Assembly (NCBI GenBank): GCA_030167865.1
Contig: JALAGF010000277.1
Span: forward strand, 62,001 to 117,784
Length of the DNA: 55,784 bases
DNA from: Craspedostauros australis
Lineage: Eukaryota
Direction: 5' to 3'
Shown: positions 2,351 to 37,730 of the stretch, piece by piece
Numbering within the stretch: the first letter of the stretch is position 1
Layout of the letters: every line of letters begins with the position of its first letter
The notes under the pieces: generated by a model
Database searches by the model: none
Told to the model about the DNA's origin: nothing
What the model saw: only the letters and a program-made list of their open reading frames with translations
Made by a program: the position numbers and the translations under genes

Positions 2351-5300
2351 ATGAAGCTCTTCAACAGCATGCTGCTGCCCGCTTGCGCACTTCTGGCAAT
2401 GGGAGCCACCCTAGTCCAAGGAACCACCATGAATGGAGCCCCAGCCATCAAGAACCTCCCACGTGCTCACGGTGAGTACTATATCGATGCTGGCCATGAT
2501 GCCGATGATGCTGCGTGTCCTGTCGATCTGAGGACGGCACAGCCATGCCCAACACAACATGCTCTGCACAATCGTTCTACATGCTCTTCCTTTGCTTCCA
2601 CTTATACCTTCGTCGTTTGCACAACTCAACTTTGATGGGCTTCCTTTGCATTTGTTCTTTCGCATCTTTGTTCTGACCGTACGCACTTGTTGGCCTACGT
2701 CCTTCGTTCCTCCGTGTCTTTCTTTGTTCCTTCGACTTTCATCAAATCACCACCCCCGCACCAACAGCCAAGCAACTCGATATCGTGAACGACGAGTTCG
2801 ACTACATCCTTGCCGGTGGCGGGTTGGCCGCAACCGTCCTCGCGGAACGTTTAACGCGTGACGGAAAGAAGGTCCTCATCCTCGAGGCAGGTGACAAGGA
2901 CTACAGGAACATCTTCATCCGCATGCCCGCCGGCATCTTGCGTCTCTTTCGATCCAAGTTCGATTGGCAGTTCGAATCCCAAGGAGAGAAAGCATGCAAC
3001 GGGCGCAACATCTTCCTTCAGAGAGGAAAGGTGCGTGCAAACAGCTGTGCTGTGCTCTGTCGTGTTGTGCGTGCCACTCAGTGAAGGTGGCGTGTGAGGC
3101 AGAATAGAGTAGAGGACAGCACTGTACCGTGCCGTACCGAACTCTATTCTGATCTCCTCCCATGCCTGCTGAACCATGGCCCCATGAATGATTGGAAATT
3201 GGTGCCTTCAGCTTGTACTGTTCCACATGTCGGCCATCATCTTCGTGTGGATGTTCTCGCGTCGAGCAGAGCAGAGTACACCGCTTGCAACATGCAACAG
3301 ACACATGGGAAACATGCATGCATGAGAATGACTGACATGTGTGCGAAGTCGATTCGCATCTGGAGTACTCTGGTATCTCACCCTGCATTATTCTTGTGCC
3401 GTGCCCGTGGCAACACTCCACCTGGAATTCAAACCAATCCATCATGCAACAGGTCTACGGTGGCTCCTCATGCACCAACGTCCTTCTGTCGCTCCGTGGA
3501 TCTGCCATGGACTACGATGCCTGGGGCGTCCCAGGCTGGACCGCAGCGGACGTCCTTCCCTTCTTCAAGGTCACCGAAAGGGACATGACCGGCCGTTCCC
3601 CCGAATGGCACGGCAAGGAAGGCGAGTGGGTGGTGGACGATGTCCGATACCAGAACCCGCTCTCCAAGCGCTTCCTCGAGGTCTGCGCTTCGGCTGGCGT
3701 TGGCCTCAACGATGACTTCAATGACTGGTCCCGCCCACAGGATGGTGCTGGAAGATTCCCGGTCAACGAGGACAACGGTGAGCGATGCCATGGAGGCAAG
3801 GCCTTCCTCGACAAGGCCCTGCGACGCAAGAACTTGAGCATCTGCACCGGCACGATGGCTCGAAAGATCATTTTTGATGATGACAAGACCGCCGTCGGAG
3901 TGGCCTACGACTTGATCGGCGACGACACTTGCACCGTAAGTTGCAAACCATGATGCTTGTTTTGTCGCTGCTGCTGCTGTTGTCGTTGTTGTTGTTGGTG
4001 GTGGTGGTATGGCTTATTGTATGATATTGGATGTGGATAAAGGCGCATACTCTGCTACGGAGTATGTTTGGTCTCCAACGATGCGTGAACAACCCAAACG
4101 AGTCACACCGATCATTTCTTGCATGTTCGCACACTATTCACCCATCCATCCTTTCTCTCACACCTCAATTCCATGCTCTTGCCCCCAATGCACACACCCT
4201 ACAACTATGACCAAAATCACCACCGGATGCGCATTCGCATTCAATGCCATCCATACTATCGTATGCATATACGCTTTCACATATGTGCACCTGCAGCGAT
4301 TCGATGCGCGCCTCAAGGAAGGTGGTGAGGTCATCTTGACGGCGGGAGTCGTCGGTTCGCCGCAGCTGCTCATGTGCAGCGGAGTTGGACCCAAGGATCT
4401 TCTCGAGGCAAATGGCATCCCTGTCGTTCACGACAACCCGAGCGTGGGGAAGAATTTCCAGGACCATCCTGCCATCGTCGTCTCCTTCCGAACACCAAAG
4501 AAGGGAGTCAGTGTCACATCCCTCCTCCGTTTCTTTGGAATGACAAACCCATTCCCCATCCTTCGCTGGTACCTCTTCAAGAGCGGACTCTTGACATCAA
4601 CTGGCTGCGATCATGGTGCGTTCGTCCGTACATCCGCATCCACGGGACAGCCAGACCTCCAGATCCGTTTCATCGCCGCAAAGCCCCTTGGGGCCGACGG
4701 AATGACGACCTACACCCAATTCCGCAACTCCAAAGCTCCTGTAAGTATGACACCACACTCTGGTCTATTCCATTCGCATTGGCGTGCTCCTGCATACGAC
4801 AGTGAAATGAAAGACAACTATCTGGCGTGTATCGAGTTGGATCAGTGATTGGTTTGTGCACAGGTATCGCAGAGTGAGATGCAACAAGCAGCAACAACTG
4901 CACCAACCGCATACCCAGCCGGATGTTTGGTCGTTGTCGCCTTTCCGTCACATCTACCTCTCTGTCCTTTCCGCGCATCGTATGATCTCACTAACACGCG
5001 CATCCCTATCGATCGTACTCGATCTACCCCACCGTGTCTGTCCTTTCCTTTCTTCTTCCCTCCGTGTGACTCCACCTGGCTCCCCTGTATTCAATCATCG
5101 TGCCGCAGGAGGATGGATACACATTCCAGCTGATTGCCGTCCGACCCAAGTCAAGAGGCGAGATCCGCATCAACTCGTCCAACACCCACGTGAAGCCGTC
5201 CATCGACATGGGTTACCTCAATAACTCTGCCGACGTCAGAACCCTGACCGAGGGAGTGAAGCTCGCACGACAGCTTGGAAAGAACGTGGGCTGGGAGGAG

Positions 5301-5672
5301 TACCTCGGCGAAGAGGTCTACCCAGGAATCGACGTCCAGAGCGATGCCGAAATCCACGAATATGCCAAGAACACTGTGCACAGCGCCAATGCAGGTGTTG
5401 GAACGTGCCGGATGGGCACTGGCAACGATGCCGTCGTCACGCCATCGCTTGAGGTCATCGGCGTGAAGAATGTCCGGGTCGGTGATTCTTCGGTCATCTG
5501 CACCATCCCAGGTGGACAGACCGCCACCCCAACCGTGATGATCGCCGAGCGTTGCGCCGCCTTCGTCCGCAGCATGAAGAACAAGATCCCAACAGCCTTC
5601 CATGTGGAGAAGAAGAAAATCACGTCGTCCTCTTCCTCCAAGAAGGCAACAGCGGCAGCCGGGACTGCATAG
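2351..5672 (+). CDS. FAP: Fatty acid photodecarboxylase (FAP)-type GMC oxidoreductase, 624 aa; exons 2351-2471, 2768-3030, 3453-3935, 4297-4740, 5109-5672
   Basis: Four GT-AG introns join in frame (1875 nt). FAD-binding motifs: DYILAGGGLA, LEAG, RGKVYGGSSCTN. FAP-clade motifs: DFNDWS, LTSTGCDHGAFVRT, PDLQIRF, DGMTTY, HSAN, IPGGQT, VMIAER. Hydrophobic N-terminal signal peptide. Confidence 0.9.
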
Positions 5673-6533
5673 GACAATCGCAGGCAGGTCAGCGCATGAA
5701 GCATCCTCATCGGAGCGAAGAAGGCACAAAACAAGAAACATCACAACGAAAGTCAACGCAGAGAAGAGAAGAGCAGAGCAGTACCAAGGAGAACAGGAAG
5801 AGAAACAAATGCGATGATGGTCCTGTTGCCGTTCATCGTCCATCGCTTGACGAGTCAACCGCATCCATACGTACTGCGATACTCAGCTGTCGTTTCGATT
5901 CGAGCGCACTGACGAGTACTCTACTCTACGGGTGGACTCTAATACATGTTTGCAACTTACGAAAACAGTACTCTGCCATACTCTCTAGAGTGCAACATTG
6001 TTCACCACATCCGAAGAAGCCCACCGCTTCTCTTGTTTGCATTGTTGCGGAGGGGGGAAAGATTACTCCGCTCAAGTCCATTCTATTCTAGCGAGGTTGC
6101 GACAGTGTTACTCTAGCTTTGCCTGACGAAATGATTCCTTCGAGCGCAACATACGACTCAGTCGATCAATTTGGTTTTGAAATCGAAGTGTTCGTCTCGA
6201 CTTTGTTCTTGATTGTAATTCGTGTTTGAACGGATACAAGACTCGCCGGATGAGGTTGATGTTCCGCCAATCAACCTTCCACCAAAGATCATCACGGTGA
6301 TGGTTGGCGGCGACTGTAATACACGGTGATGGCACACGAAAGAAGTTGCGCAAGAGCGCGACAAGTGGGGGTGCGTCGCTGCGGGATTGGAAGATTGGTG
6401 GGTGGCACATTGATGGTCGGAGGCAGTTGATTCCGACTCTCACTTCATCCATACTCGTGTTCGTACTACGAGCTACGAGTGCACACCCAACATCGTCCAC
6501 GTTTTTCCTCTTGTGTGCATCTCCCTTCCGAAC

Positions 6534-7526
6534 ATGTTCATCGCTCTTCGAGTTCTGACTCTGCTGTGCGGCGTTGGGATGGCCATTGGCTTTTCCGCAT
6601 CTCCGCTGTCGTTTCATCAACGAGTCAGCCAGCCGAGGCAGGATCTTTGTCTCCAGGCATCCTCCGATGGTGATGACACCAGCAGCGACGCAGAACTGCG
6701 GCAGGTCGTTGATTGGGCAAAGTCCGAGCCGCTGGATTCATTGCTTCCCCGCGACGACGCCAAGTCCATCCTCGCCGAGCTGCTGTCGTCGGATTCGCTG
6801 ATAGACGACAGCGAGGCCCTTGTTGCCATCAACTGGGAGAAGATCGAGGCAAGGTTGAAAGCGGAAGATCGGTCCATCGCGCAGCTGCTCGGAGACGGAT
6901 CCACCGATTCCGTGCTGAAAGCCGTAGGTTCGATCGAGGGGTACGATTCCGATGCCGTCCGTGCGTTCCTCTCCAGCGACGCTATCAGCAGCCTCTTCAG
7001 CCGCATTCTGTATGACGGCATCTTCGAATTCTTCCAAAGGATCGACGTGTTTGGCAACATCGTCAACGGCCTGCCCATCATCGGGCCCATCCGCAAGCAG
7101 ATCGTGACAGAGACCAAGAAACAGCTGGACCGGTCGCTGGGTCCGCTCGTGCAGAACTTCCTGTCCACGTACACCAAGATCGCCGTCGTGCAGGCAGGCG
7201 AGTACGTGCTGTCGCCCAGCAATCGCAAGTCCTTCGCCAGCGCCAACGTGCGTCTCGTTTCCAACATCCTGGAACGCCCCATCAATTCCGTGCTGCCGCC
7301 AGAAGATCTCACCGACAAAGTTCAGGAGGCGTCGTTCGATTTCTTGCGGAAGCTGGAGTCGGACAAGGTCAATGAGTACGTCGATGTGGTGTACGATTTT
7401 CTCGGTGACAAGAAGCTGGAATCGGCCGTCGACGTGGACAAGGTATTGGACGCGTCGCCCACTCTGGAAGCGTCGCTCGTTCGGATACTGGAACGATCCA
7501 GAGCGACGTCTGAAGCATCCAAGTAG
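6534..7526 (+). CDS. Hypothetical helical protein, probably plastid-targeted (330 aa)
   Basis: Long ORF with strong codon bias. Signal peptide MFIALRVLTLLCGVGMAIG followed by F-SASPLSF transit-like region. No family recognised. Confidence 0.8.
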   Translation: MFIALRVLTLLCGVGMAIGFSASPLSFHQRVSQPRQDLCLQASSDGDDTSSDAELRQVVDWAKSEPLDSLLPRDDAKSILAELLSSDSLIDDSEALVAINWEKIEARLKAEDRSIAQLLGDGSTDSVLKAVGSIEGYDSDAVRAFLSSDAISSLFSRILYDGIFEFFQRIDVFGNIVNGLPIIGPIRKQIVTETKKQLDRSLGPLVQNFLSTYTKIAVVQAGEYVLSPSNRKSFASANVRLVSNILERPINSVLPPEDLTDKVQEASFDFLRKLESDKVNEYVDVVYDFLGDKKLESAVDVDKVLDASPTLEASLVRILERSRATSEASK

Positions 7527-8200: not shown

Positions 8201-10219
8201 CTAGTCCTTCTGTCGACGAGGTTTTGTCATCTTGGCATTCATCTTCTTGTTCTTGCCGCCCTTCTTGGATTTGGACTTCTCCGAGGCTGCGGCCTTGAGC
8301 TTGGATGGTGGGACGGAAAGCTCACCCTTTGGCTTCTTCTTGGGTGCGGGCTGGGCCTTGTCATTCTTTCGTTTCTTCTTGCCGCCCTGAAGTTTGCGCT
8401 TGCCACTAACATCCTTCTTGTCATGCTTCTTCTTATTGCTGTTGCCGTTTGCCTTCTTGTCGGACGCATCGGTTGCCTTCTCTTCACCAGTCGCCGTGCC
8501 ATCATCCACGTTCTCGACTTCTTCGCCGTCCTTGCCATTGTTCTCCCCTTCGGCCTTCTTCGGTTCATCGCCGGGACGACGATCGCTCAGCTTCTTGATC
8601 TTGCACACGTAGAATCCGTCCATGTTGTGCACGTGCGGGTAAAATCTCCTCGTCAAGGCGACGGAGGAATGGAAGCGCTTGTTCTGATACCGCGTGAAGC
8701 CGGGCTTTCCAAACTCGAGACCGGCATCGATGATCTTGATGTCGCGTTTTTGCAGGGCGTAGTTGACGACTTCCTCATTCTCCGCCACGCTGATGCTGCA
8801 CGTCGAGTAGACCATGATGCCGCCCGTCTTGCTCTTTGGGTTCAGCGTGTCGATGGCGGCCAGAAGGAGCTCCTTCTGCAGGTGTCCGCATTTGAGAATG
8901 TCCGCCATGGTGCGCTGCACCTTCACGCTGGGATCTCTGCTGATGACGCCCAGTCCGGAGCACGGTGCATCGAGAAGAACGCGGTCGAATCGGTACTGCT
9001 TGAAGTGGTTGCCGATCTTGCGTCCGTCGTGCACGCAGGCGATCACGTTCTTGACACCGAGACGGTGCATGTTGGCCACCGTCGCCTTTTGGCGATCGGG
9101 ACGCAGGTCGTTGGCGAAGATGACACCAGTGTTGCGCATGAGCTGTGCGATGTAGGAGGTTTTGCCACCCGGCGCTGCGGACATGTCGAGCACCCTTTCG
9201 TTTGGTTGCGGGGACAGCGCCAGGATGGGGCACATGGATGCGGCGCTTTGCAGCATGTAGTGCCCGGATAGGTATTCGGGTGTGGCGCCGACGGGGACGG
9301 GACTCTCGATGATCTTGAGACCGACCTTCGACCAGTTGGCCAGCGGATCGAGAGACACGCCGCGCTTCATGAGGGCCATGGCAAGGTCCTTCCGCCTCGT
9401 TTTCAAGGTGTTGGTACGCACGACCATCGGCCTTGGCTTGTCTGAATACTCGACGAACTCCAACGCCTCCGCGGGGCTGAACATCGTGAGGAAGTACGCA
9501 ATGAGCTCTGGCAGGTAACCGAAAAGATCGGCAACGAATGCAGCCAAGGCCTCCATGTAGTCGCTGCGAGGCCGTCCTGGTTCGCGCAGCTTGCTGAAGT
9601 TGGCAAGCACCTCGAGGATGGATTCGACGTGTTCGCGGATCTCCGATGGCGGGATGACACGGTCGATGTCCTGCTCCAGCTCCTCCTTGGTCGGCAGATG
9701 GTAGATCTCCGTGTGCTGTGCGATGGTGTCACGCATCTCGCGCTCGGCATCCTCCTCCTCTGCCAATTTCTCCGCGTCCAAGAACCGCGACTGCCGTTCG
9801 ATCTCCAATTCGTCATCGCTGTCATCGCCATCATCGCCATCACCACTGGCATCACCACTGGCATCATCATCTTCATCATCACTGGCATCATCGTCGCTAT
9901 CATCATCATCATCCGATGACATGAGCTGCGACTTCTTCTTTGGAGCCAGCTTGAGCCACTTGGCATTTTCATCTGAGAATGCCTTGCCCTTCGTGGCTTC
10001 ATCACCACTGTCGTCATCGTCGCTGCTACTGTCCTGATCGGATTCGTCGTCATCGTTTGTGGCCTTCATGAGGACCTCTTCGTCGGAACTTTCATCTGAG
10101 ACGCCATCGTTGGTCTCTTCCTCCACTAACTGCTTCTTGCGGTTGTTCTTCTTTGCTGGCTCATCCGATGTGGATCCCTTCGATGAGCGGCGCCCCTTTC
10201 TTGATTTGCTTGCCACCAT
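8201..10219 (-). CDS. NOP2: NOP2/NSUN1 25S/28S rRNA cytosine-C5 methyltransferase
   Basis: Acidic N-terminus; RTNTLKTRRKDLA, GATPEYLSGHYMLQ, LDMSAAPGGKT, DRVLLDAPCSG, VYSTCS, RRFYPHVHNMDGF; Lys-rich tail. Confidence 0.96.
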   Translation of the reverse strand: MVASKSRKGRRSSKGSTSDEPAKKNNRKKQLVEEETNDGVSDESSDEEVLMKATNDDDESDQDSSSDDDDSGDEATKGKAFSDENAKWLKLAPKKKSQLMSSDDDDDSDDDASDDEDDDASGDASGDGDDGDDSDDELEIERQSRFLDAEKLAEEEDAEREMRDTIAQHTEIYHLPTKEELEQDIDRVIPPSEIREHVESILEVLANFSKLREPGRPRSDYMEALAAFVADLFGYLPELIAYFLTMFSPAEALEFVEYSDKPRPMVVRTNTLKTRRKDLAMALMKRGVSLDPLANWSKVGLKIIESPVPVGATPEYLSGHYMLQSAASMCPILALSPQPNERVLDMSAAPGGKTSYIAQLMRNTGVIFANDLRPDRQKATVANMHRLGVKNVIACVHDGRKIGNHFKQYRFDRVLLDAPCSGLGVISRDPSVKVQRTMADILKCGHLQKELLLAAIDTLNPKSKTGGIMVYSTCSISVAENEEVVNYALQKRDIKIIDAGLEFGKPGFTRYQNKRFHSSVALTRRFYPHVHNMDGFYVCKIKKLSDRRPGDEPKKAEGENNGKDGEEVENVDDGTATGEEKATDASDKKANGNSNKKKHDKKDVSGKRKLQGGKKKRKNDKAQPAPKKKPKGELSVPPSKLKAAASEKSKSKKGGKNKKMNAKMTKPRRQKD

Positions 10220-11179
10220 GTTGATCGTTTGTTAGATGGCCGAGAATGTTGTGGATGCAGCTGGGCAGTGAAGTAGAGCAGAGTATTGCGTGGCGATGCG
10301 GTACGCGTAGATGTACTTATTCCATCCGCCATGTATGAGTACCATGGGGTGATGTGTGTCGGATTGTTGATGTTCACATGTTTCTTTCTTTGGAATTACT
10401 CTGTTTTTCGTTTTGGTTTGGTGGTTGCGACTTTGCAACGAACGAATGCCAGACGCATTTCTAGTCTGAATGGAACAGGCTAAGACGCTCGCACAAAACG
10501 GGAACAGTTGGCGTTGAATTTTGGGAGGATTAACGTGTTTGTCCACGATCTCGTCAACGACGTTGGCTCAACATCAGCAAACATGGGGGCTGTTCTACCA
10601 CTTCCGACCGTTTGTATGGTATCGTTGGCACAGACACGGGCATGGATGCCGATTCTGATGGTCAAACGGATACGGATGCGGAGAAGAAGGCGAAGGCCGC
10701 TGCAGTTTGGCACGATCACTTGATGAAGCTGTATTGTATAGTAATGCTGTTGCGTTTATAAGTGTCTGTATTGTATGGTACATATGACATTTAGGATGGT
10801 ATTGTACTCAGTATATGCTTCGCAGGTCGAACTGTGGTGCAGTGGAGGGTGTTGTCGATTCCGTTGCTGTGGTGCAACCTTGAACCACGAATGGTCCCAA
10901 CCAAGTGCTGTCCCGAGAGTCCCCTTCCGTGTTGTCAGGCGTGTGAGTGTGACTGAACGAATGAGAGACTGGTCAAGTGGCACTTCGGCAACAGTCCCTG
11001 AGATCTCGTTCGTGGTGCTTCCGTCTTGTCGGCAGTTGCGATGACGCTTGGGCACATCTTCCAGAGAAGCTCGAAGGCGTCGCATGCCTCTTGGATAGAG
11101 ACTTCGATGAGTGGGCACGAGTGCGAGTGTGTGCACTCTACGTGTTGTTGCCATCTGGACACATTCACTGGTTAAATGG

Positions 11180-17055: not shown

Positions 17056-19209
17056 ATGAAGCTGGAACTCTCCCTTTACGGCAAGGACCTGAAGAATGTG
17101 GCAGGAGCATTCAAGGGTGAGTCAACCCCTTTGACGTCGGCGAGCTCGTGCGAGCTTGCGCTCGCATCTGCTCTGCGATGATGAAATCGGACTACTGCCG
17201 GGTTTGATTTGCTGTCTCTGCCATCATCATCACGAATCTCACATCCCGCGACCAATTGCATTCTTCGTTCCTCTATTGCCTCCTGCGAATGGCGCCGCCT
17301 CCACCTTTACCTCCATCGCAACAGGCACATCCGACCCATTTGCGGTCGTCACGAAGCTCAGCTCCTCCGACGGCCCTGGTGCCGAAGTGCTGGGCAAGAC
17401 GGAGGTCATCAAGAACTCCCTCGATCCGCAATGGGTCAAGGTGTTCTTCCTTGACTACAACCTCGGAACGCCCCTCAAGGTGGCCGTCTCCATCTTTGAC
17501 GAGGTTCGCAAGGGCGACAACAAGAGCATGGGATCCGCGGTGTTCGACATCGGCGAGGTTCTCGGAGCACGCGGCAACACCAAGGCCAAGAAGGTCAGGG
17601 GAGGTGGAACGTGAGTGTGTGCTCCAACTTATCGATCGCTAAATGAATGCAAATGTATCGTGCAATGCGCATTCCAGTGTTTTGGCTACCTGGCTGGCTG
17701 GCTGGTCTGATTTGCTGTCATGCACGGCGTTTTCTGCGTTTTGCGTTTGCACCAACATACACCCCAAAGCATATTCCGGGATTCGCGTCACAACCCGCCC
17801 ATTCACTCGTGCGCTCATCGCATTTCTTCTGCAATTGCTGCCACTTCGTAATGCCGCTATGGTGGATATTCAGCCTCTTCGCCAACGTCCGAAAGAGCGT
17901 CGGAAAAGGCGTGCTGCGACTTGCCATGAGTGGAATCAAACTCTCCAACACGGAAGGCTTCCTGCGAAAGAGTGATCCGTTCTACGAGCTCAACCGCAGA
18001 ATGGACAGCGCAGGTGCAGCCACATGGGATAACGTCCACCGATCGCAGGTCGTCAGCAACGACCTCAGCCCGACCTGGAAGGAGGCGACCTTGGAGCTCA
18101 GCGTGCTTTGTGGCGGCGACCTGGATCTCCCCATCGAGGTCAAGGTGTACGATCACGAAAAGAAGGGAGACCATGTCCTGATGGGAGAATTCGAAACCAC
18201 TGTCAACCAGCTGGTGGCTGCTGAGTCCGACACCATCGACCTAATGAAGAACGGCAGCAACACCGGCAAGATCAAAATCAACAAGGCCCAAGTCGTCGGG
18301 GCCGAGACCGTCATGGAGCAACGCACCGAGTACTCAGCTGCAGCAACAGCCCCACCGCCAGGCGTCCCCACCTTCGCGGATTACGTCAGCGGTGGCTGCG
18401 AACTCAATGTTGTCGTTGCCGTCGACTTCACCGGCTCGAACGGAGATCCACGGCAGCCGGGAACTTTGCATCACATTGGATCTGGATTGAATGACTACGA
18501 GAAAGCCATCAAGTCCATCGTCCCCATCCTCGAGCAGTTCGATTCCGACAAGCAGATCCCGTTCTTGGGATTCGGTGCCAAGTACGACGGCGTCGTGCGC
18601 CACGCGTTCCAAATCGGAGACAGCGAAGAACTGGACGGCGTCCGAGCCGTGCTCGATGCCTACCGCGGCGTCTTCGCCACCCGGCTCATCATGTCCGGTC
18701 CCACAGTGTTCGAGGAAGTCATGCAAACCGCAGCCGCAAAGGCGCAATCGCGATTGGAGGCAGCGCAGGCAGAGGACAAGCAATCCTACACCATTCTGCT
18801 CATCTTGTCGGACGGAGCCGTTTCGGATGTGGAGGCAACGAAGGCCTGCCTGGAGTCGATCAACGAAACACCGCTTTCAGTCGTCATCGTGGGCGTTGGT
18901 AATGCGGACTTCTCCTCCATGGAGTTCTTGGATGACAGTCAGTCGTTGGGCGAGCGCGACATCGCCCAGTTTGTGCCATTCAACGAGCACTGCAACAGTC
19001 CCGCAGACCTGTCCGCTGCGACGTTGCAGGAGATCCCAGAACAGCTCGTCAGCTACTTCCAAAAGCATGACATCCAGCCGCGCGACCAAATGACCGTCGA
19101 GGATGAGGAGATCATCATCGAACCGGAGGATGAGATCGACCTGTCTCTAGATTTCGGAGACCAGGAGATCGTGGTCTCAGGAGGCGGAAGCGTGGCCAAT
19201 AGTTGGTAG
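17056..19209 (+). CDS. Copine (two C2 domains + vWA), 560 aa; exons 17056-17116, 17325-17610, 17874-19209
   Basis: In-frame GT-AG introns. C2 motifs GTSDPF..KTEVIKNSLDPQW and KSDPF..NDLSPTW..VYDH. Copine vWA motifs VAVDFTGSNGDP, GFGA, SGPT, LLILSDG, PLSVVIVGVGNADF, RDIAQFVPF, EIPEQL. Confidence 0.95.
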
Positions 19210-19554: not shown

Positions 19555-20670
19555 TCAGAGCCTCGAACGAGGCGGCCGCTCGCGAGGTCCAACATCCTCC
19601 TCCTCAGCAGCAGCAGCAGCAGCACCGTGATTGCCCACAACTCCTGCAATTGACAAGAAGTTGTCAATGCTTGCATTGTACTCCTTGGGATGAACCTTGA
19701 GATGTCCGCAATGTTTCGATCGCTCCCAACACTGCGACAACACCGGCCCCTTTCTCCTCGGTTTGCCGTGCACGCCGTTGCTCCTCGTATTCAATTGGCG
19801 TAAATTGTGAACAACTTGCTCAATGTGCTGCGACGAGGCCAGCGGATCGTCGTGGCTATACACGAAGAGCTTGGTAACATCGATGGATGCATCATTCTGT
19901 AACGTGTCAAATAGTTTATGGCAACGTTCTGCAGACGAGGATGCATGGTCGTCTCCGTGCACAACCAAGTCCGGTCCGAACGTGCGCAAGATGGAGACCT
20001 TCTCCTGCCATTCGCACTGCTCCAACGCTCGGTTCACATCGGCACCGGTGACGGTGAAAAAGCAGGGACATGAATCGAAGACGATGCCGTTGACACACGA
20101 TTTGAGCCCAAGGACAATCCGCGCCGTGTCGATGGAGGGATCCGATGATGTCATTGATGCCAACGATGATGCTAACGATGGACTTGCTGTCGCTCTTGCA
20201 ATGCCATCATCCGCCCACTGGAATATGCGCTGAACTTCCTCCCAGATGAAGCACCCGCCGTTGGAGAACGCATGAAAGACGACTTGCTGCTTCCCATCGC
20301 ACGCGTAGTAAGGCTCACGCTGCTGGTGATACAAATCGGCCAGCAGCTTCCATGCAATCTCGTGCATCGACAGCGACCCGGTGTCCTCGTCAAGGCACCC
20401 ATGTGATGGCCAGTCGGGGGGAGCACAGATGTCGGCGTACGTCAGCACCGTGTCGTACAGCATGCGCGGTGCAGCGATGTAGGACCACACGTCGCATCCT
20501 TTAGCGACATAGAGTCGGCGGAATGAGTTGAGGTGGCGTTCCTGACATCCCAGCCAACCTAGCAGGATCACCACTGGTTTGGTTGGTCTGATTGATTCGA
20601 TTGGAGCCAATGGTGTCGATACCTGCGGTGACGCCAGTCGTTTCGCCTGCGGCGAATGTTGATCGGACAT
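19555..20670 (-). CDS. TMEM53/DUF829 family alpha/beta-hydrolase-fold protein
   Basis: VILLGWLGC, VFHAFSNGG, GIVFDSCP, LFVYSHDDPL, WERSKHCGHLKVHPKEY. Confidence 0.88.
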   Translation of the reverse strand: MSDQHSPQAKRLASPQVSTPLAPIESIRPTKPVVILLGWLGCQERHLNSFRRLYVAKGCDVWSYIAAPRMLYDTVLTYADICAPPDWPSHGCLDEDTGSLSMHEIAWKLLADLYHQQREPYYACDGKQQVVFHAFSNGGCFIWEEVQRIFQWADDGIARATASPSLASSLASMTSSDPSIDTARIVLGLKSCVNGIVFDSCPCFFTVTGADVNRALEQCEWQEKVSILRTFGPDLVVHGDDHASSSAERCHKLFDTLQNDASIDVTKLFVYSHDDPLASSQHIEQVVHNLRQLNTRSNGVHGKPRRKGPVLSQCWERSKHCGHLKVHPKEYNASIDNFLSIAGVVGNHGAAAAAAEEEDVGPRERPPRSRL

Positions 20671-21334
20671 GGTGAAAGCGGCAGCTGCGATGATCTTGCA
20701 ACGCAGACAGTTATTTGCAGAGAGTAGAGCTTGTTGTGGCGAAGTGGATGTTGTGGGTGGCAGGATTCTCGAGAGTATTCGCGAGCATGGTCCTGTATCG
20801 GTCTCTATCGTACGAGTATTGTTGGTGTCTCAGAACATGAGGGGCGTTGCATCTCTTGGCAGTCGCCGTGGCGATGTTGTTGTACGTCTGCGGAAGCGAA
20901 CGATGGAGATCTTTTGCGATCTTTCATGGTGGGTTGGATCACGAGCGAAAACCGTGGGTGGGTATGTACCATGCGAGCTACGGCTATGATACGTATGAGC
21001 TACTCGTAGTGTAGACGCCTTATCACTGGAATGCAACTGCGGGAAGACCAAAGACTGCCTCGTTGTATCCATTCTGAAACGTCATGCAATCATACGAAAA
21101 TAATGCTAAGATAGGATTTGCAACTAACTGTGTCAATTTCGATAGGAGAATAATTGGTATGGTCGACTTCATCACTGTTCGCTGGCCTTCGATCACTCCG
21201 CAAGGCCCGGGTGCGGCATTCAATTCCATTGGATCAAGACGGCCATTGTATTGATGAATGACCCATCTGTACTACTCCACTATGTAATATATAAAATAGT
21301 ACATCCAGTACATTCGATACCCAATGCTCGACGT

Positions 21335-24636: not shown

Positions 24637-25791
24637 CATTGCGTGAGCGCGGTGCTGATTGGGCACTGATATGTATGGTGCGGAATGAAAGTACATGTGC
24701 GGATGCATGATGGAGTTGAAACGCCAACACACGAATGAAGGACCGAAGCCCGGCACGGACGCATCCAACGGATGAGCGGAGCGACGAATGAAGTTGTCGA
24801 AGACATAGTGCCCGTATTGTATGGTGTGCGGAATGAGTGGAACAATGAGTGAGACTACCTCCAGTGCTACAGTCACGCCACAACGACAGTTGATGCAATT
24901 TCCGCAATTGCACAATACACAGAAGCACGCACGATTTGACTCGAGTCATACTCTTCCTATCAAAACACACATTTCTTCATCCGCGCAGACTGACGGGCCT
25001 TTGTCTGCTGGTCTTGAACAAAGCGCGCTGCTTTGAGCTTGTCACTTGGTATCCTTGCGTTTTGCAATTGAATACTGCGACAACAATTGCGATGCGCAAG
25101 ACCGAATTAGCAAACCAAGACCCATCAGAGATACCTGCGCTAGTGTAGCCGTCAGCGTGTTCTTATTAGAATCATTCTCGGATCGTGGTCCTTCTTGGTG
25201 TGTGCATGGAGGCTCTTCTGCGTCCGTTGGATGTACGCAGTCTGTTGCGGTTATTGGAACCCCAGCGGTGGACGTACCGATTGATAGCGCGATAGCATAT
25301 GTGGCACGATCCACGCGCAGGTCATTGTAAAGCGAAGGAAAAGGAGACACGATCGTGGACAATGGTTCAACGCGGCGCCATCGTCATCATCATCATTGGA
25401 GTACACTTGTCTTCGCTTCCATCTTCATCTGTGATGTGGTCTTCATCAGAAAGACCGCGGGCGCTGTTGTGAGTTGGCCATGGCACCATCTTCTTCATCC
25501 GCTCTGAACCAGTCATCGTCTCCGCGTCGGTCGCGCCCATCATTTTTGGTTGGTGGTGGTTTGATGTCGCAGAAATTGGCGCCACGCCCGTTTCTCAGAT
25601 CGTCTGTACATCCATCCGTCATGGTGCCCACACATCACGCATCTCCCACCAACATCATCCACAGGAGATCTTGTGTCTCTTGGTGACACCACAATTGTTC
25701 CTCCAATTTGGGACAACGAGTTCGAACAGGAGGAGCACCATAGGTCACATAATAGAATACAACACTGGAGTGGCAGCTGGGAGATGATGGG

Positions 25792-27333
25792 ATGGACGGA
25801 TTGAGCGTTGATGAATTGAGCAAGATCGCCGCAAGACGGCAAATCGTTGCCCGTGCGATTCATGGAATCTGGACGGAGGATGGATCATACCCCTCGGGAT
25901 TGGCGGACAAGCTCCTTGATGGTCGCATCGACTTGATTGGTGAATATACTATGCTTGCCGACTTCCACGCTGCCATCGATCCATCCGAGCGGTCATTCTC
26001 GCGATGCGGGCCAAGGGCAATCCCATCTCGGGATTGTGGCACGCTGTCTGTTGATCAATTCCGCAGCCAATACATGTTTCCCAATCTACCTGTCATGATC
26101 ACTGGGCTCACGGCCTCCTGGAAGGCCAATGAGTGGCTGGGAGCATCGCCACTACCGACACCAGCAGCACAAGCAGCAGCCATGCAACCGGACATGGATG
26201 AGATGGAGCTTCAGTTTGGTCCAGAAATTGTCCCCGTTCATGAGCAGCTGTCGTCCGGTTTCACATTGCCCCGTCCGCTTGTGAACGAGATGACCTTCTC
26301 TGAGTATGCGGCTTGGTGGAGGAAGCATCAGCACGACCAACATAATCCGCCGCGTGATAATGGAGATGCCGTGCCCTCATCCTCAGTACAGGAACACGGA
26401 GACGTCGATTGCGACCAGACTTTGTTGTACTTGAAGGATTGGAAGTTCGTGGCGACGCACCCTTCCTTGCGCGCGTACGAATGGCCCAAGTACTTCCGCG
26501 ATGACTGGTTGAACGGTGCCATGGGATCTGCGTACAAATTCATCTACCTTGGTCCCAAAGGAACCAGCACGCGCCTTCACGCAGACGTGCTGCAATCTTT
26601 CAGCTGGTCTACGAATGTGTGCGGTAGAAAGCGATGGTACCTGATCCCGCCAGAATGCACCTACCTCCTCATGGATTGCTTCGGGCAGCATCTGGCACCT
26701 CACTTGCATGCCGACCTTGATTTGGGACTGGAATGCTTGTATCCTGGACTCAAGCATGCTCGCATGCAAGCCATGGAAGTGATCCAAGAGGCAGGCGAGA
26801 CCATCTTCGTTCCATCCAAATGGCACCACACGGTTGAGAACATCGCCGACACGCTCTCCATCAATCACAATTGGCTGAACGGGGCGAATATCCGGCACAG
26901 CTGGGACAAGCTGAAGAAAGAACTGCTTTCGTATGACTGCCAACCAATCGGTTCTGACGTCGTTGGAAATGGAAGCGCAGATGGCCAATTGAATGGCATT
27001 GGTGACAGCACGAAGACAAACACGAACACGAATGGCCAAACAGCACCGAGCGACAGCACCGGGGCCAAGGATACTTCGCAGGCAGCCGACGACCTCGTCC
27101 TGCTGTGGATTGTTGTGTCCAAAAAGGCAGAGCACATCTTGGCGCAATCAGGAGGATCCGTGGATGATTCGTCGAGCAACGACCTCAAGCAGATCTTGCT
27201 CATTTTGCGAGGTATCCAAGACGTCATGCAACAAGGCAAGGATCAAGGCTTATCAGGGCGATGCCGTGTGGACTTGGAGCCTCTGATGCACACAGTTGAG
27301 GATGCATTATCGTTGGCGGAAGCAAGCGAATGA
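25792..27333 (+). CDS. JMJD4: JmjC 2-oxoglutarate/Fe(II) dioxygenase, JMJD4-like
   Basis: PNLPVMITG, LLYLKDW, YFRDDWLN, FIYLGPKGTSTRLHADVLQSFSWSTNVCGRKRW, QEAGETIFVPSKWHHTVEN, SINHNWLNG; HxD...H triad intact. Confidence 0.9.
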   Translation: MDGLSVDELSKIAARRQIVARAIHGIWTEDGSYPSGLADKLLDGRIDLIGEYTMLADFHAAIDPSERSFSRCGPRAIPSRDCGTLSVDQFRSQYMFPNLPVMITGLTASWKANEWLGASPLPTPAAQAAAMQPDMDEMELQFGPEIVPVHEQLSSGFTLPRPLVNEMTFSEYAAWWRKHQHDQHNPPRDNGDAVPSSSVQEHGDVDCDQTLLYLKDWKFVATHPSLRAYEWPKYFRDDWLNGAMGSAYKFIYLGPKGTSTRLHADVLQSFSWSTNVCGRKRWYLIPPECTYLLMDCFGQHLAPHLHADLDLGLECLYPGLKHARMQAMEVIQEAGETIFVPSKWHHTVENIADTLSINHNWLNGANIRHSWDKLKKELLSYDCQPIGSDVVGNGSADGQLNGIGDSTKTNTNTNGQTAPSDSTGAKDTSQAADDLVLLWIVVSKKAEHILAQSGGSVDDSSSNDLKQILLILRGIQDVMQQGKDQGLSGRCRVDLEPLMHTVEDALSLAEASE

Positions 27334-29023: not shown

Positions 29024-30300
29024 CAGATGGTGTCATGATCCCACATTTCCAAGCAACTCATTCATGAGTGTCACAGGAGTCATGATTCAGCTGTGCTCGA
29101 CTTGCAGCTCATAGACTCTCTCTAGCCTGTAGAAGCAAGTTGGGACAGACTTGACCCAGGACTGTGTTGGGACCCACCTGCCCAGTTGTGTACATCATGT
29201 TTGGTACATCTACCCACCTGTGGGATGGGATGCTACCAGATGCATGGTGTGCAGCTTAACTTGTGAGCTGAACTTTGTGAAGCCTGAAGCCCATCAGCAG
29301 CAGTTGCATGAGTGACCAACCATCTTGCCCCAAGGGAACAAGTGTGTGTTCAGTGGCATCATGTACAGCAGCCAGTGGAGCAGCCAGCAATGCAAGCAGC
29401 TCAAGAGGAGGATATCAGAATCCTCTATCCTCTCTCCTTCAAGGCAGACAACAAGCCAATCAGGTTTATCAGCGCAACGCTATATATCTCTAACAGTAGT
29501 GACACCCATCAACCAATCAGAAATCTTCACATTTCTCACATTTTCCGTTCGGAACCGAAATTTTGGTCGAAATTCCGTTGTGTCAAATTTGTGTCACATT
29601 TTGCGTCGCAAGAACTGTTTTCTTGTCATCCACAGATTTTGGATGACATGGAGTGAATTTCTTGACAAGATGATTCCGGCGAAACACCTCTCGTCCAATC
29701 AGGGACGACCTTCCTTCTTGGTCGGGAGAGTGTGAATGACAATGACCTTCTCAAGCGAATGACGATCAATCATGTGATTGTACAACTAGCAACATCATGA
29801 GAGGACAAAAATTCGCAAGACAGGGTATTGTAGTGTTTTGTTCATCGACTTTTGCCAATTCTACTTCATGCAGTAACACGCACATTTTCGTTTTGTCTTC
29901 GTGTTAATTTCACTTGCAAATGCATGAGGCCTGTCATGTCTCTCTCATGCTCACAGTTCCAAGAAATCAATCTTGTGAGCTTGCCTGCATTCCAACTACT
30001 CATACAAATACTGCAATAACAAACACTCTCCTCACCAACAACAACAATCTGATCACTCTATGTTCTCAGCGTGGTATCCTTCAAACCCATCTAAGATTGC
30101 ATTCTAATAACCACCAACAACGTCGTCCACAGTCGCAAGAGTATCCGTGGGCAGACCTTGCCAATGGAATTGTGCAAGAGACACGTAGACCTAACTAAGC
30201 TTGTGCACTGCAGATCACAGAGCATTTGCAATCCCCCCTTCATGCTCCAGCATGGATATGGGTGGGATGTACACAAAGCCACATCACTTCTCCTGAATCC
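29024..30300. other. CpG-depleted intergenic island with a palindrome-rich core (possible methylated/decayed transposon remnant)
   Basis: No CG at 29100-29472, 29902-30069 or 30186-30299, while flanking DNA is CG-rich. Several short inverted repeats at 29543-29785. No transposon ORF found. Confidence 0.45.
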
Positions 30301-33300
30301 GCTTGATTCCAGCGGAAAGGCCCCCAGGAGGAATGTTTCTCAACCTTCGCATTTCCTCCACTCTTGAGATTAACCAAGGCGCCAACTCTTCCCTCCTGTT
30401 CTTGAACTTTGGCATGTGCTTGATCAGCCTGTAGTGCTCCCAAATGGCCACACAATCGTAGTACAAGTTGATGGAGCGTTTCACTTCCATTCTATCCTTC
30501 CACCGAGGATCATTCATGATGAAAAACATGACAAGTTGGAGGCTGTCAAAGAAGTCCTTGCGGTTCTGGAATCCCACGCCACGCTTGACTCCAGGAGGCA
30601 TGCAATAGATGTCATTGGGGCGATTCCCCCTTTCGATGGTCCAGCCTAGTTCATCCTTCAAGCAAGGCCATATTGTGCCCCAGAATATATCCGCCTTGAG
30701 GCGAAGCTTTGAGCTTCTCGACATCTCGACAATTGGGTTGCTTGGCTTGGGTTTCCGCTCAGATTGTGCATTGGACTCCTGCTTGTATTTCCGCTTGGAA
30801 GTGTTGGCCCGCACCATCTCCATGTGATCGATCGTGAGCTTTGTGATGCCTTCGGTGACAAGAGGCTTTACAAGTTCGGCATCTACGCCGACCGTTTGGC
30901 ACAGTTTCTCAATCGTGTAAATGCCGATCTCACCGAAGTATCGCTGGCAGAAGCAGTGCACCACGTAGATCACCTGCCAGACGATGTACCATTCCTCTGC
31001 AAGCTGCTTTGTCGACATGGGCTTGGAGCGTGCAGCCTCAGGACGGCCCTCCATCGTGGATGCTGCTGTCGGTCGGATCGACCTCGTGGCTGTCATCACA
31101 GTTTCCTTGGGGACGGACATGTTGAGTATGTTAGGATCGAGGCAGCACTCGCCAGAGAGGGACACTGCGTCCTTGTACGCCTGTAAATCAAACATGGCAG
31201 CCAGCAGTCCCTTGGATGCAGTTGTATGCTTGCCCAGCATCGAACGGGAGAAGCCACTGTTGGTTATCATGCTGTCGAGATCTTTTGCTCTGATGGAGGG
31301 CAGGTCATCGTTTTGTGTTCCGTCGAAGGCCAGGAATCGGTAAATGGAATCCATGCTGCTCGCATTGCCCTCTTTACTTCGGATGCACAATTGGCGAATA
31401 AGTGTAGCCGCTGAGCGAGCCCTATTCAATATCTTCCCCAGCAAGACCGCTTCCTGCGCTTTCTGTTCGTGGGTCAGTGCCTCATTGGATTCGCCACCAT
31501 GTGACGAGACGGGGGCAGCCTCCCGCCGTTCCATGAACGTATCGAAATCGATGCACATATTTGTGATTAGGTTGCGTCCAACACCGCACCAAATGCTCTC
31601 GTCCAAGGGCTTGACCAATTTATCCTGGAGGGGGTAGCATTGCTCGGAGATGCGTTCACGTCTTATTGCATCCTCGAGGTTAACACCCGCTGCATCGCGC
31701 AAACCCGGATGCCTGCGAAGATATGCAAGGAAGGGCATCGCCGATGGCCATTTGAATGCATCAAACCATACCTGTAGCTGCTGCTTCATGTCGGCCAGCC
31801 AATTGGATTGGGCGAAGATATTGCGATGTTGTCCGGCGCACAACAGGGTCACATGATCGCTGAACATCTGCCCCAACCATGCGATGCGCCGCAGAGCGAT
31901 GAGTTGGCGAGCTGTGATGGTAGCCGCCGGTTCGTCGCTTCTATGGCTGCTCTCGCCGTTCAGCACAGCTTGTATCATGCCCATGATGGCTTGCCGAGTT
32001 TCCACCTCGATTATTTCAACGAGAATGTACAACTTGTGGAAGGTGAGAGAGGAAATCATTCCCTGGAGCTTTTCGCGCTCTTCGAAGTCCCTCGAAATTT
32101 TGTTCCCCAGACGATCATCTGACTTCACCTTGCCATGGATGTTGACGATGCCGTAGCCCTTACGCTCGCGCACATCCTCGTACAGATCCTTGTAGTCCAC
32201 AAGTGCTTCGAATGTGTCACCAGGCTTCATCTCGTGATCGATTAGCAGGAAGTACATCACGGTGCGCCCAGCACCACATTGGAGGGCATGCACTGTCTGT
32301 TTGCATTTCGGATCATGGCCAACTTCGTTCACGTACATGGGGATGTTCCTCCTTGCAATCTCATGAGGCTCACCCGTCACATCGGACGTGATGTCGGCGT
32401 ACTGGACCTTCCCAAGTAGTGCCTCCTCCACCGCAAATCCCCACTGTCGCGTCGTGTCACGTCGCAATATGCGGTGCAGGTATCAGTTTGCATGCCATTG
32501 CATCGTAAAAAGGCACGTCGATGCAATGAAAAGGCGTACGCCGCAAGGTAGAGTAGAGCAAACGAGATTATATACAATACACGAGGATTTGAGAAAACGA
32601 AAAAGGAGAAGAGATGCCGGTGGAGAGCGCAAGGAACGGGTTAGTGCTGTATGCGATACGGGACCCATGCAGTGACGTGTTGGTTCTTCCGGTTCCTTCC
32701 CAGATGCCACGCGAAGTCGCTCGCCGGCTACCTGCAGTGCAGCGCAGTGGACATAATCGGTGAGTTTCCCTTTCGCTGCTTCCCGTTATTATCTTTTTCC
32801 GTCACAGATGTGCTTCACTTACATCTCCAGGCTCGTTGTCGAAAATGAAAGACTTCACGTCGAAGTGATGGTCTGTTTTTCGATCTACTCGTACCAAGCG
32901 GTGACAGAGTGTCATCAAGCCAACACGAATTCATCGAGAGTGGTGGGAGCGCAATACAGTGGAATGCAATGCAACGTTCATCGGTCAGTACAGAAATGGC
33001 GGCTGAGGATGGCGAGCAGGGGACGGCAGAATCCAGATCAGCAGAAACGACCGGAGAGATCGACAGACAGCACCATGTCTGCCAGTGCCCGCATTCGCCA
33101 CAACAGCGTCCATGAATGTAGGGCAATTCCAGCAGAGGCAAGAGCAAAGCACTATTGCTCGTATGCCCGTTATTCGCATTCATCTCTCCATGTATCCATG
33201 CATTCGCACTTTCGATCATTCTTTGCGATTGCGAACACGATTACAACAGCACAAAGCGTACCTTCCTTCCGAAATGGACCGTAGCGCCCAATGTTGACCA

Positions 33301-36300: not shown

Positions 36301-37390
36301 CCCTATCGCTGTCATCGGACGACATGAGGAAATCAAGGCGGAAAGACCTCGGCGCTCTGCCAGACGAGACGGGCCTTCGAACGTTGAGAAGCTTGGGATC
36401 GGAGAAGATGAAGACATCGCTGTCGCTGTTGCTGTCGCGACCATCATCGCGGTCTCGTGAATCGTCCGGAGACGATGAGTCGCCTTCATCGGATGATGAC
36501 AAGATCTCGATGCAGCTGACAAAGGTGTATGCGTCGCTGTCTGACGTACCGGCACTGGCGTCATCTTCACCCTCCGTGCGGGCATGAGCATCTTCATGAG
36601 ATTCTGCCTGGCCACGTTCACCGGCAGGATGTAGGGGACGACGAGCGTCAACGCTCTCTTCTTTGGCAGTCTTGAGATGCTGTGTATCCGTGGCGTTGTT
36701 TTGGGACACCGTGCTGCCGTGCGTCGTGCTGTCTCTGTGGCCACGGCCATTCGCATGCGCATGTTCGTTCTGCGCCTCGCGGGATGAATTAGTCCCATTC
36801 GTACCACCCGCAGCTGCGGCGTTCACTTCCGTTTTAACCTTCGTTTCTCTCTCGATGTTCCGGTTCGTTGGCCTTGCCTGCGTGCCAAGCGATTGCCCAG
36901 ATGCATCGACAATCTCGATGTCGCTGTCCGAGTCCATCTGATTCGTGGTCGAAGCCGCGATAGGATGTGTCGGAGCTGATGCCTGTGCTGACCGTGAAAT
37001 GCGGTCAACAACCACTGCATCGCTGTCGCCATTAATGTCGCTATTGATATCGCCGAGGCTGCCACTGTCGTTGCCTCTTTCGCGTGTGTGGTCATTGCTG
37101 TTGGCAGTCTTATGACTGGTGTCCGAGTCCGAGTCGCTCAGGAGATCGATGGTCTCGATGGTCCCATGCGCTGTCGAAGATGGCAGCGCAGCTTGAGTTC
37201 GTCGCTGCTGCTGCTGCTGGCTGCACGATTCCATTCGCGATGCTTGCGTTGGGTCAACCTTCACGCTCCTCATGTTATTCGTGCGTGTTGTGCTGTGATG
37301 ATGGGAATTCAATCGCACCGCGGCTTCAACTCCTCTCCTTGGCGTCGTACCTCCAGCAATCGCGTCGCAGCCACTTGTCGGGTTCACCAT
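30284..37390 (-). CDS. ~1931-aa protein: disordered/polyQ N-terminus, divergent SET-like domain, C-terminal Trp/Gly (MBD-like) motif; exons 37390-34264, 33995-33702, 33414-33262, 32884-32823, 32443-30284
   Basis: Four GT-AG introns join in frame (5796 nt). Splicing creates KVEAKTSNIPNAGHGVF (SET GxG-like), followed by IGRYGPF, PMYVNEV and PGDTFEALVDY..YE..RERKGYG. Basic NLS-like run KRKKKKKARY. Start codon uncertain. Confidence 0.78.
34941..35048. repeat. 54-bp tandem duplication inside the polyQ coding region
   Basis: Unit tgctgtttgagaaggtgtacttgttggatacgctgggccagattctgttgctgc at 34941 and 34995; encodes QQNLAQRIQQVHLLKQQ twice. Confidence 0.9.
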
Positions 37391-37730
37391 AACGCAGCGG
37401 CGTTGCCGTTGTTTCTCTCCTTGTCGCTGAGCTGCGGGCGTCGAATCGCCACAGCGTGTAAATGTAACTGGTGTTTGGAACGGTGTCCCGCCGCTTTGAT
37501 GTCCACTCGCAAGCGATGTCAAGCAGCGAAATCTTGTTTGGCGTGACGGAATCGAAGGCGATGGAATGTCCACGTTTTCGGAGAGGAAGTACGATGCTCC
37601 AAATGTTTGTGGCTCCTACTCGGGGAATCCAAGATCCATGTCTCTTCAAGCAGGTGTTTGTGATTGTATGCGTTTGTCTCCTGTGGTCTTCGATTGTCCT
37701 CTGGCTACCTCCAACGCCTCTCTCTTCCAA

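What the first reader, a model, noticed from the sequence alone, without database searches (positions are those of the whole stretch)
2351..5672. The GMC oxidoreductase is a fatty acid photodecarboxylase (light-driven hydrocarbon-forming enzyme)
Seen: the spliced 624-aa protein has TSTGCD, PDLQIRF, DGMTTY, FQL, HSAN and GGQT. Known: these match the Chlorella variabilis FAP residues C432, R451, Y466, Q486, H572/N575 and Q620 as I recall them, which separate FAP from choline dehydrogenase-type GMCs. Inference: an active photoenzyme that automated pipelines could label 'choline dehydrogenase', with the model split over five ORFs.
Basis: partly seen in the sequence, partly recalled or inferred. 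Interest (0 to 1): 0.72.

Follow-up and report, generated by a model that had tools for sequence, protein, structure and literature searches.

The report
Diatom light-driven hydrocarbon enzyme (FAP) gene
This is a diatom's copy of a known algal enzyme that uses blue light to turn fatty acids into hydrocarbons; the gene itself is ordinary, but its address tag lacks the usual chloroplast signal, so in diatoms it may work in a different part of the cell.

Summary
Confirmed. Five exons joined at four GT-AG introns give a stop-free 624-aa protein; intron 4 is bridged by a public contig. It is the single fatty acid photodecarboxylase (FAP) orthologue of a photosynthetic diatom. CvFAP is the best structure match of exons 3-5. 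CvFAP C432, R451, G462, Y466, Q486, H572, N575 and Q620 are kept. It sits in the CvFAP/CrFAP clade at 100/100, and grouping it with other GMC enzymes is rejected (p-AU 4e-45). FAPs are known across algae, so this is a new member of a known family; activity is inferred, not measured. Two additions. The protein is the most divergent of 49 diatom-group FAPs at conserved columns, including a rare A457P in the substrate tunnel. Also, 0 of 30 scorable diatom FAP presequences have an aromatic residue after the signal peptide (1 has Leu), whereas Triparma and several brown-algal FAPs have the plastid-import Phe. Diatom FAP may therefore act outside the plastid stroma (about 0.5). No assay or localisation of a diatom FAP turned up in 10 paper searches.

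The parts
2351..2471 (+). Exon 1: start codon, signal peptide (aa 1-24, 2351-2422, cleavage inferred at VQG|TTM) and start of the conserved diatom N-terminal segment
   Evidence: in-frame TAG at 2339-2341 just upstream; cleavage site set by alignment to homologues, not by SignalP
2472..2767 (+). Intron 1, 296 nt, GT..AG, phase 1
   Evidence: homologues continuous across it; no transcript cover
2768..3030 (+). Exon 2: FAD-binding Rossmann start (GGG motif)
   Evidence: Pfam NAD_binding_8; NCBIfam GMC families
3031..3452 (+). Intron 2, 422 nt, GT..AG, phase 0
   Evidence: no transcript cover
3453..3935 (+). Exon 3: GMC_oxred_N, flavin-side loop (CvFAP T169-L173; Val at the A171 position)
3936..4296 (+). 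Intron 3, 361 nt, GT..AG, phase 0
   Evidence: no transcript cover
4297..4740 (+). Exon 4: catalytic Cys393 (4606-4608, CvFAP C432), Arg413 (4666-4668, R451), tunnel residues G424/M425/Y428/F431 and the rare Pro419 (CvFAP A457)
4741..5108 (+). Intron 4, 368 nt, GT..AG, phase 0
   Evidence: skipped exactly by a public contig
5109..5672 (+). Exon 5: GMC_oxred_C with Q444 (Q486), H528 (H572), N531 (N575), Q574 (Q620), a Lys/Ser/Ala-rich tail and the TAG stop
5673..6007 (+). Probable 3' untranslated region (minimum extent)
   Evidence: The intron-less contig runs on to 6007; contigs cannot show the true end

Best explanation
The gene encodes this diatom's single fatty acid photodecarboxylase. Shown here: gene structure, orthology, kept catalytic residues, single copy, photosynthetic host. 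Inferred from CvFAP: the protein enters the ER by its signal peptide, binds FAD, and holds a free fatty acid in a narrow tunnel with the carboxylate on Arg413. Blue light excites FAD, which takes an electron from the carboxylate; CO2 leaves in about 300 ps; back-transfer of the electron plus a proton (Arg413, Cys393, water) gives the Cn-1 alkane or alkene. Likely substrates are C14-C18 acids such as 16:0 and 16:1, giving C13-C17 hydrocarbons (inference: the tunnel Gly424 is kept; V453I, G455A, V463M and A457P may shift chain preference). The compartment is open: about 0.5 outside the plastid stroma (ER, chloroplast ER or periplastid space), about 0.5 stroma/thylakoid by atypical import.
For: Best PDB match of exons 3, 4 and 5 is CvFAP (E 4e-27, 2e-26, 4e-35; next-best non-FAP 1e-16, 2e-16, 2e-21). 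Spliced protein: 42% identical to CvFAP and CrFAP, 28% or less to the five other GMC genes of its genome. Tree of 37 rows: 22 FAP-type rows form one clade at 100/100, and the AU test rejects placing it with the 15 non-FAP rows, p 4.4e-45; trees of 103 and 73 rows agree on the FAP clade. Of 361 proteins aligned, C432 plus R451 occur in 222 of 224 that carry N575 and Q620, and in 4 of 137 that do not. Papers: C432 and R451 are FAP-specific (10.1101/2020.06.23.166330); mutating their equivalents abolished hydrocarbon output of two brown-algal FAPs (PMC13521276). Val at A171 also occurs in Ectocarpus fasciculatus and Dictyota FAPs (Table S1), which are among six reported functional. The conserved GMC active-site His of the bacterial rows aligns to Ala532 here and their Asn to Gln574 (its catalytic role is recalled). 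An AlphaFold model of homologue P0001 (68% identical) matches CvFAP at 1.6-1.7 A, E 2e-73. The genome has PsbO and 59 light-harvesting matches and one FAP-type copy.
Against: No activity was measured, and no diatom FAP assay was found in the paper searches. The protein departs at 28 columns that are at least 90% conserved among 48 diatom-group homologues (their median 7, maximum 25), and its end branch is 0.31-0.39 against 0.07-0.13 for its nearest rows. Pro at A457, a residue close to bound palmitate (10.1101/640474), occurs in 0 of 48 diatom-group and 1 of 176 other FAP-type sequences. Junctions 1-3 lack transcript support. The folded model is of a homologue, not of this protein.
Confidence: 0.87

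Rival explanations
1. Location variant (compatible with the best explanation): diatom FAPs were re-addressed. The signal peptide is followed almost at once by the mature fold, so the enzyme stays in the ER/chloroplast-ER lumen or periplastid compartment, or is secreted, and decarboxylates fatty acids leaving the plastid rather than thylakoid lipids.
For: Of 49 rows examined (window plus 48), 30 had a scorable full presequence: the +1 residue is T 21, I 5, S 2, L 1, N 1; none has F, W or Y within 2 positions. The ASAFind rule classes proteins without F/W/Y/L at +1 as not plastid (PMC4329603). Triparma FAPs have Phe there, as do 4 of the 6 brown-algal rows seen in Table S1 of PMC13521276. This genome uses the normal motif: 9 of 12 fetched light-harvesting loci show A-x-A-F, several being near-identical paralogues and 3 unreadable. 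The 18 residues after the cleavage site are 55% identical between homologues against 27% for the signal peptide, and residues 32-42 of P0001 fold as a helix at pLDDT about 97, leaving about 10 residues for a transit peptide.
Against: Cleavage sites were set by alignment, not SignalP. 3 of 30 have Leu within 2 positions, including Leu at +1 in the Coscinodiscus cluster. The window's first 20 residues carry net +3 and no acidic residue, as stromal transit peptides do. My hand-rebuilt ASAFind 2 periplastid score is 0.34 here and under the 0.49 cut-off in 30 of 30, though that predictor finds only 25% of true cases. Triparma's F-led region is just as short. The ASAFind training list includes a plastid protein with Gly at +1. 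FAP is thylakoid-bound in Chlamydomonas.
Confidence: 0.5
2. A FAP orthologue under relaxed selection in this lineage: it still folds and binds FAD but has weak or shifted activity, for example a tunnel reshaped by Pro419.
For: 28 departures at conserved columns, the most among 49 sequences; long end branch; A457P nearly unique.
Against: All catalytic positions are kept and the frame is intact over five exons. Many departures are conservative or match CvFAP/CrFAP (A62, V189, S529). A correctly spliced contig exists. No dN/dS or genome-wide rate control was run, so the whole lineage may simply evolve fast.
Confidence: 0.1
3. An ordinary GMC oxidoreductase (choline dehydrogenase or alcohol oxidase type) that oxidises an alcohol in the dark.
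For: Pfam gives only GMC domains; the best NCBIfam match is choline dehydrogenase, and database labels of homologues say the same.
Against: NCBIfam scores of the four exons (72-135 bits each) are far under the 605 cut-off even when summed. The GMC His/Asn pair is replaced. The tree rejects it. The genome's other GMC genes, which lack the FAP set, can fill that role.
Confidence: 0.02

Closest known systems
Chlorella variabilis FAP (CvFAP, A0A248QE08; PDB 5NCC, 6YRU) and Chlamydomonas CrFAP
   Same: Same clade (100/100), 42% identity, C432/R451/G462/Y466/F469/T484/Q486/H572/N575/Q620 kept, same fold for a close homologue.
   Different: A171V, T172L, V453I, G455A, M456K, A457P, V463M, G622A and a 2-residue shorter loop at D396; ER signal peptide instead of a chloroplast transit peptide; activity untested.
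Brown-algal FAPs (Ectocarpus, Dictyota, Saccharina; PMC13521276) and Nannochloropsis FAP
   Same: Stramenopile FAPs with demonstrated activity; Val at the A171 position in the Ectocarpus and Dictyota rows seen.
   Different: Most carry a clear bipartite plastid presequence (Phe at +1 in 4 of 6 rows seen); this protein has Thr at +1 and a short, conserved segment. They were not in my trees.
Uncharacterised diatom FAP orthologues (Psemu1 model, Seminavis, Grammatophora, Leptocylindrus, Epithemia and many unnamed records) and Triparma FAPs
   Same: 58-69% identity; shared V171, A455, M463 and N-terminal helix; the window groups with Psemu1, P0018 and P0026 at 97/95.
   Different: Most have Phe at Y466 (40 of 48) and Ser at T484 (42 of 48), where the window keeps Tyr and Thr; the window is the most divergent at conserved columns. 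Triparma keeps Phe at +1.
Bacterial choline dehydrogenase BetA and related GMC oxidoreductases
   Same: GMC fold, FAD binding.
   Different: Lack the C432/R451/Q486/N575/Q620 set and keep the active-site His; outside the FAP clade.

Membership tests
Fatty acid photodecarboxylase (EC 4.1.1.106) | GMC oxidoreductase N and C domains with an FAD-binding Rossmann motif | tested here: met
   Pfam PF00732 and PF05199 above cut-off
Fatty acid photodecarboxylase (EC 4.1.1.106) | Falls in the algal FAP clade with CvFAP and CrFAP | tested here: met
   100/100; AU p 4.4e-45 against the non-FAP placement. Red and brown algal FAPs were not in the tree.
Fatty acid photodecarboxylase (EC 4.1.1.106) | Catalytic Cys432 and Arg451 | tested here: met
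   Cys393 and Arg413
Fatty acid photodecarboxylase (EC 4.1.1.106) | Flavin-side and tunnel residues Q486, H572, N575, Q620, G462, Y466 | tested here: met
   All kept; Y466 is variable in the family (PMC11664916)
Fatty acid photodecarboxylase (EC 4.1.1.106) | Single copy in a photosynthetic alga | tested here: met
   One FAP-type match among six GMC_oxred_C matches; PsbO and light-harvesting genes present
Fatty acid photodecarboxylase (EC 4.1.1.106) | Plastid/thylakoid location (typical, not catalytic) | tested here: inconclusive
   Signal peptide present, but no F/W/Y/L at +1; periplastid score under cut-off; SignalP and ASAFind themselves were not run
Fatty acid photodecarboxylase (EC 4.1.1.106) | Light-dependent conversion of Cn fatty acid to Cn-1 hydrocarbon | not testable with these tools
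   Needs expression and GC-MS
Choline dehydrogenase (BetA, TIGR01810 / PRK02106) | Score above the curated cut-off and the GMC active-site His/Asn pair | tested here: not met
   Exon scores 55-135 bits against cut-offs of 605 and 732 (exons scanned singly); His replaced by Ala, Asn by Gln

The most novel reading that the evidence does not exclude
Diatom FAPs form an untested subfamily that lost the plastid-import Phe after the split from bolidophytes and work outside the plastid stroma (ER, chloroplast ER, periplastid space or cell surface). Light-driven hydrocarbon synthesis in diatoms would then act on exported fatty acids and serve a role other than tuning thylakoid membranes; this copy, with a rare tunnel proline, may also have a shifted chain-length preference.
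Probability: 0.45. Interest if true: 0.62.

Novelty: new member of a known kind. Interest (0 to 1): 0.35.

Why it matters
As an annotation it corrects a common mislabel and adds one candidate to a small class of natural photoenzymes used for fuel and synthesis work. No diatom member was found assayed in the library searched, and diatom-group members differ from CvFAP at tunnel and flavin-side positions that engineers mutate (A171, V453, G455, A457, Y466, G622). The presequence pattern matters more. The current view ties FAP to thylakoids and its physiological role is stated to be unclear. If diatoms put FAP elsewhere, that view is not general, and one GFP fusion plus a knockout in a tractable diatom would test it. 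It would also bear on which enzymes make diatom hydrocarbons in the sea.

Tried and rejected
Host is a colourless diatom keeping a photoenzyme: rejected, PsbO and 59 light-harvesting matches are present. Second FAP copy: none; the other GMC matches are 41-45% identical over short stretches of exon 4 and lack the residue set. FAP together with a CER1/3 enzyme in one genome: one weak CER1-like_C match lies in a protein without a fatty acid hydroxylase hit and with a flavin monooxygenase domain, so it is not a standard CER1/3. Gene cluster for lipids or hydrocarbons: neighbours scanned (upstream ORFs read) show none; a lipase-domain ORF lies 43 kb away. RNA evidence: no RNA holder listed; the one contig laid leaves exons 1-3 uncovered, which proves nothing. 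Phaeodactylum FAP in the ASAFind 2 tables: not found by name, KO number or short motifs; long files may be cut. Periplastid prediction: rebuilt score negative and not informative. The exact place of the protein within diatoms is unstable (basal, with Psemu1), so no genus is claimed. Earlier scan notes: nothing. The journal version of Moulin et al. is not held. A TTM-containing Guillardia periplastid presequence is in another register and was discarded. No complex prediction was run.

Full report
Observation. The stretch 2351-5672 is one spliced gene. Exons 2351-2471, 2768-3030, 3453-3935, 4297-4740 and 5109-5672 join at four GT..AG introns into 624 codons and a stop. The six motifs are present, and five are unique in the six frames of the window. 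Eight diatom-group homologues align through junctions 1-3 without length change. One contig of the one run laid skips intron 4 exactly and continues to 6007; its RNA origin is a guess and it may be the source sample. Junctions 1-3 rest on homology alone.

Identity. Exons 3, 4 and 5, searched singly against the PDB, each find CvFAP first, ten or more orders of magnitude ahead of other GMC enzymes. The spliced protein is 42% identical to CvFAP and CrFAP. It keeps C432, R451, G462, Y466, F469, T484, Q486, H572, N575 and Q620. That alignment used the C432S record; wild-type Cys is seen, and the wild-type record was used from then on. In a 37-row IQ-TREE tree the 22 FAP-type rows form one clade at 100/100, and forcing the protein among the 15 other GMC rows is rejected at p-AU 4.4e-45. 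The rows were chosen by me from search hits; red and brown algal FAPs were not included. Larger trees agree on the clade. Nearest named relatives are diatom proteins. The genome has PsbO and 59 light-harvesting matches, one FAP-type gene and five other GMC genes without the residue set.

How diagnostic the residues are. I aligned 361 fetched proteins of 480-800 aa and split them by N575 plus Q620, so counts for those two are circular. C432 with R451 occurs in 48 of 48 diatom-group, 174 of 176 other FAP-type and 4 of 137 remaining proteins; those four look like truncated FAPs (one is labelled FAP) and were not checked further. Y466 is not diagnostic: Phe in 40 of 48 diatom-group proteins, Lys in red algae (PMC11664916, parts 1-2 of 5 read). 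The His that bacterial GMC rows hold near the flavin aligns to Ala532 here and their Asn to Gln574; that this pair drives alcohol oxidation is recalled. NCBIfam offers choline dehydrogenase as best match, far under cut-off, which explains the database labels.

Mechanism. Inferred from CvFAP: excited FAD takes an electron from the bound carboxylate in about 300 ps, CO2 leaves, and back-transfer with a proton from Arg gives the alkane (PMC12177928, passages). C432S and R451A/K variants have little or no activity (10.1101/2025.10.10.681628, passages), and the equivalent changes abolish output of two brown-algal FAPs (PMC13521276, part 1 of 7, passages and supplement part 1 of 4). Val at A171 is shared with Ectocarpus and Dictyota FAPs in that paper's Table S1. 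An AlphaFold model of homologue P0001 (pLDDT 93) matches CvFAP at 1.6-1.7 A; the window's own protein was not folded. I put activity at 0.87. The likely products are C13-C17 hydrocarbons (inference).

Against. This copy is divergent: 28 departures at columns at least 90% conserved in 48 homologues, whose median is 7 and maximum 25. Pro replaces A457, a residue near bound palmitate (10.1101/640474, passages), in 0 of 48 diatom-group and 1 of 176 other FAP-type proteins. No rate control was run, so lineage-wide fast evolution is as likely as a change of function.

The presequence. The protein starts with a 24-residue signal peptide followed by Thr, not the Phe of diatom plastid-import signals. 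Of 49 rows examined, 19 were dropped: fragments, truncated models, three Triparma proteins and two with other N-termini. In the 30 left, +1 is T 21, I 5, S 2, L 1, N 1; none has F, W or Y within two positions, and three have Leu. Triparma FAPs have Phe, as do 4 of 6 brown-algal rows seen, and 9 of 12 light-harvesting loci fetched from this genome show the normal motif (12 of 59 matches, several near-identical). ASAFind's rule calls such proteins not plastid (PMC4329603, passages), and loss of the Phe is the main mark of periplastid proteins (PMC12136025, section 7 part 1, passages, supplement searches and parts 12-13 of file 9). The next 18 residues are 55% conserved, and part of them folds as a confident helix in P0001, so little room is left for a transit peptide. 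Against re-addressing: cleavage sites were placed by alignment; the window's segment is basic and acid-free like a stromal transit peptide; my rebuilt periplastid score is under cut-off in 30 of 30, for a predictor with 25% recall; Triparma's region is equally short; and exceptions to the rule exist. I put a location outside the stroma at about 0.5.

What is known. Moulin et al. (10.1101/2020.06.23.166330, parts 1-2 of 7 and passages) report about 200 putative FAPs across algae, activity in red, brown and eustigmatophyte members, thylakoid location in Chlamydomonas, and the plastid motif in Ectocarpus and Nannochloropsis. Its supplements (Fig. S4, Tables S1-S2) were not seen; they may list diatom FAPs and their targeting predictions, so the presequence point may not be wholly new. 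A Phaeodactylum paper names FAP only in a pathway figure legend and its abbreviations (PMC6231261, passages), and a biofilm preprint mentions it in discussion (10.64898/2026.08.30.748109, passages). Ten searches gave no assay or localisation of a diatom FAP. Most hits were seen only as listings, and the library lacks most subscription journals, including the original structure papers.

Surroundings. The neighbours are unrelated to lipids as far as scanned: a diatom-type unknown protein, a Nop2-like RNA methyltransferase, copine, DUF829, JmjC, MYG1, a lipase domain and HVA22. CER1/3 enzymes are the alternative route to hydrocarbons in green algae (PMC13326499, passages). The only CER1-like match in this genome is an odd fusion without the hydroxylase domain.

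Verdict. It is a new member of a known family. The reason for a further look is the clade-wide loss of the plastid-import Phe in diatoms, which is cheap to test. Interest 0.35; 0.62 if re-addressing is real (probability 0.45).

Noticed in passing
G000:C6555, L012:3694-7770, minus strand (outside the window): A 1358-codon open frame joins a hydrophobic N-terminal region, a weak CER1-like_C/WAX2 reductase-type domain (E 1.3e-5, under the whole-protein cut-off) and a flavin monooxygenase domain (E 1e-10); no fatty acid hydroxylase hit. Possibly a reductase-monooxygenase fusion; a speculative candidate for FAP-independent lipid chemistry such as the unexplained C21:6 route of brown algae.
   Followed up: partly
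window 6534-7526, plus strand: 330-aa protein with a signal peptide apparently followed by Phe (plastid-type), no Pfam or NCBIfam match; nearest Atlas cluster is an unnamed, mostly diatom family (score 0.95, 91 members).
   Followed up: partly
window 8201-10231, minus strand: RsmB/Nop2-type RNA cytosine methyltransferase (PF01189, E 5e-67).
   Followed up: partly
window 17647-51646: Copine (17647-19209 +), DUF829 (19555-20829 -), JmjC (25756-27333 +), MYG1 (38228-39595 -), lipase class 3 domain (49069-49911 +), HVA22 (50468-51646 +); long ORFs without Pfam match at 30284-32482, 34238-37615, 40777-44397, 45781-47673 and 51861-53888.
   Followed up: no
L001, L003-L006 (G000:C4961, C3401, C6401, C4949): Five non-FAP GMC genes in two close pairs plus a single gene, whereas most algae were reported to have no GMC gene besides FAP.
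   Followed up: partly
P0207, P0326, P0332: P0207 is a diatom/bolidophyte-type FAP joined to a CpeT/CpcT domain (possibly a chimeric transcript); P0326 and P0332 hold three and two tandem GMC units.
   Followed up: no
P0212-P0259 group, e.g. P0226 (Amphidinium): Many FAP-type proteins of the clade holding the Amphidinium record begin with one or two long hydrophobic stretches rather than a cleavable bipartite signal, suggesting a membrane anchor and another targeting route.
   Followed up: no
window 2429-2431: A second in-frame Met (residue 27) lies just after the signal peptide, as in 12 of 29 homologues; several database models start there. It could allow a cytosolic form or be a prediction artefact.
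   Followed up: no
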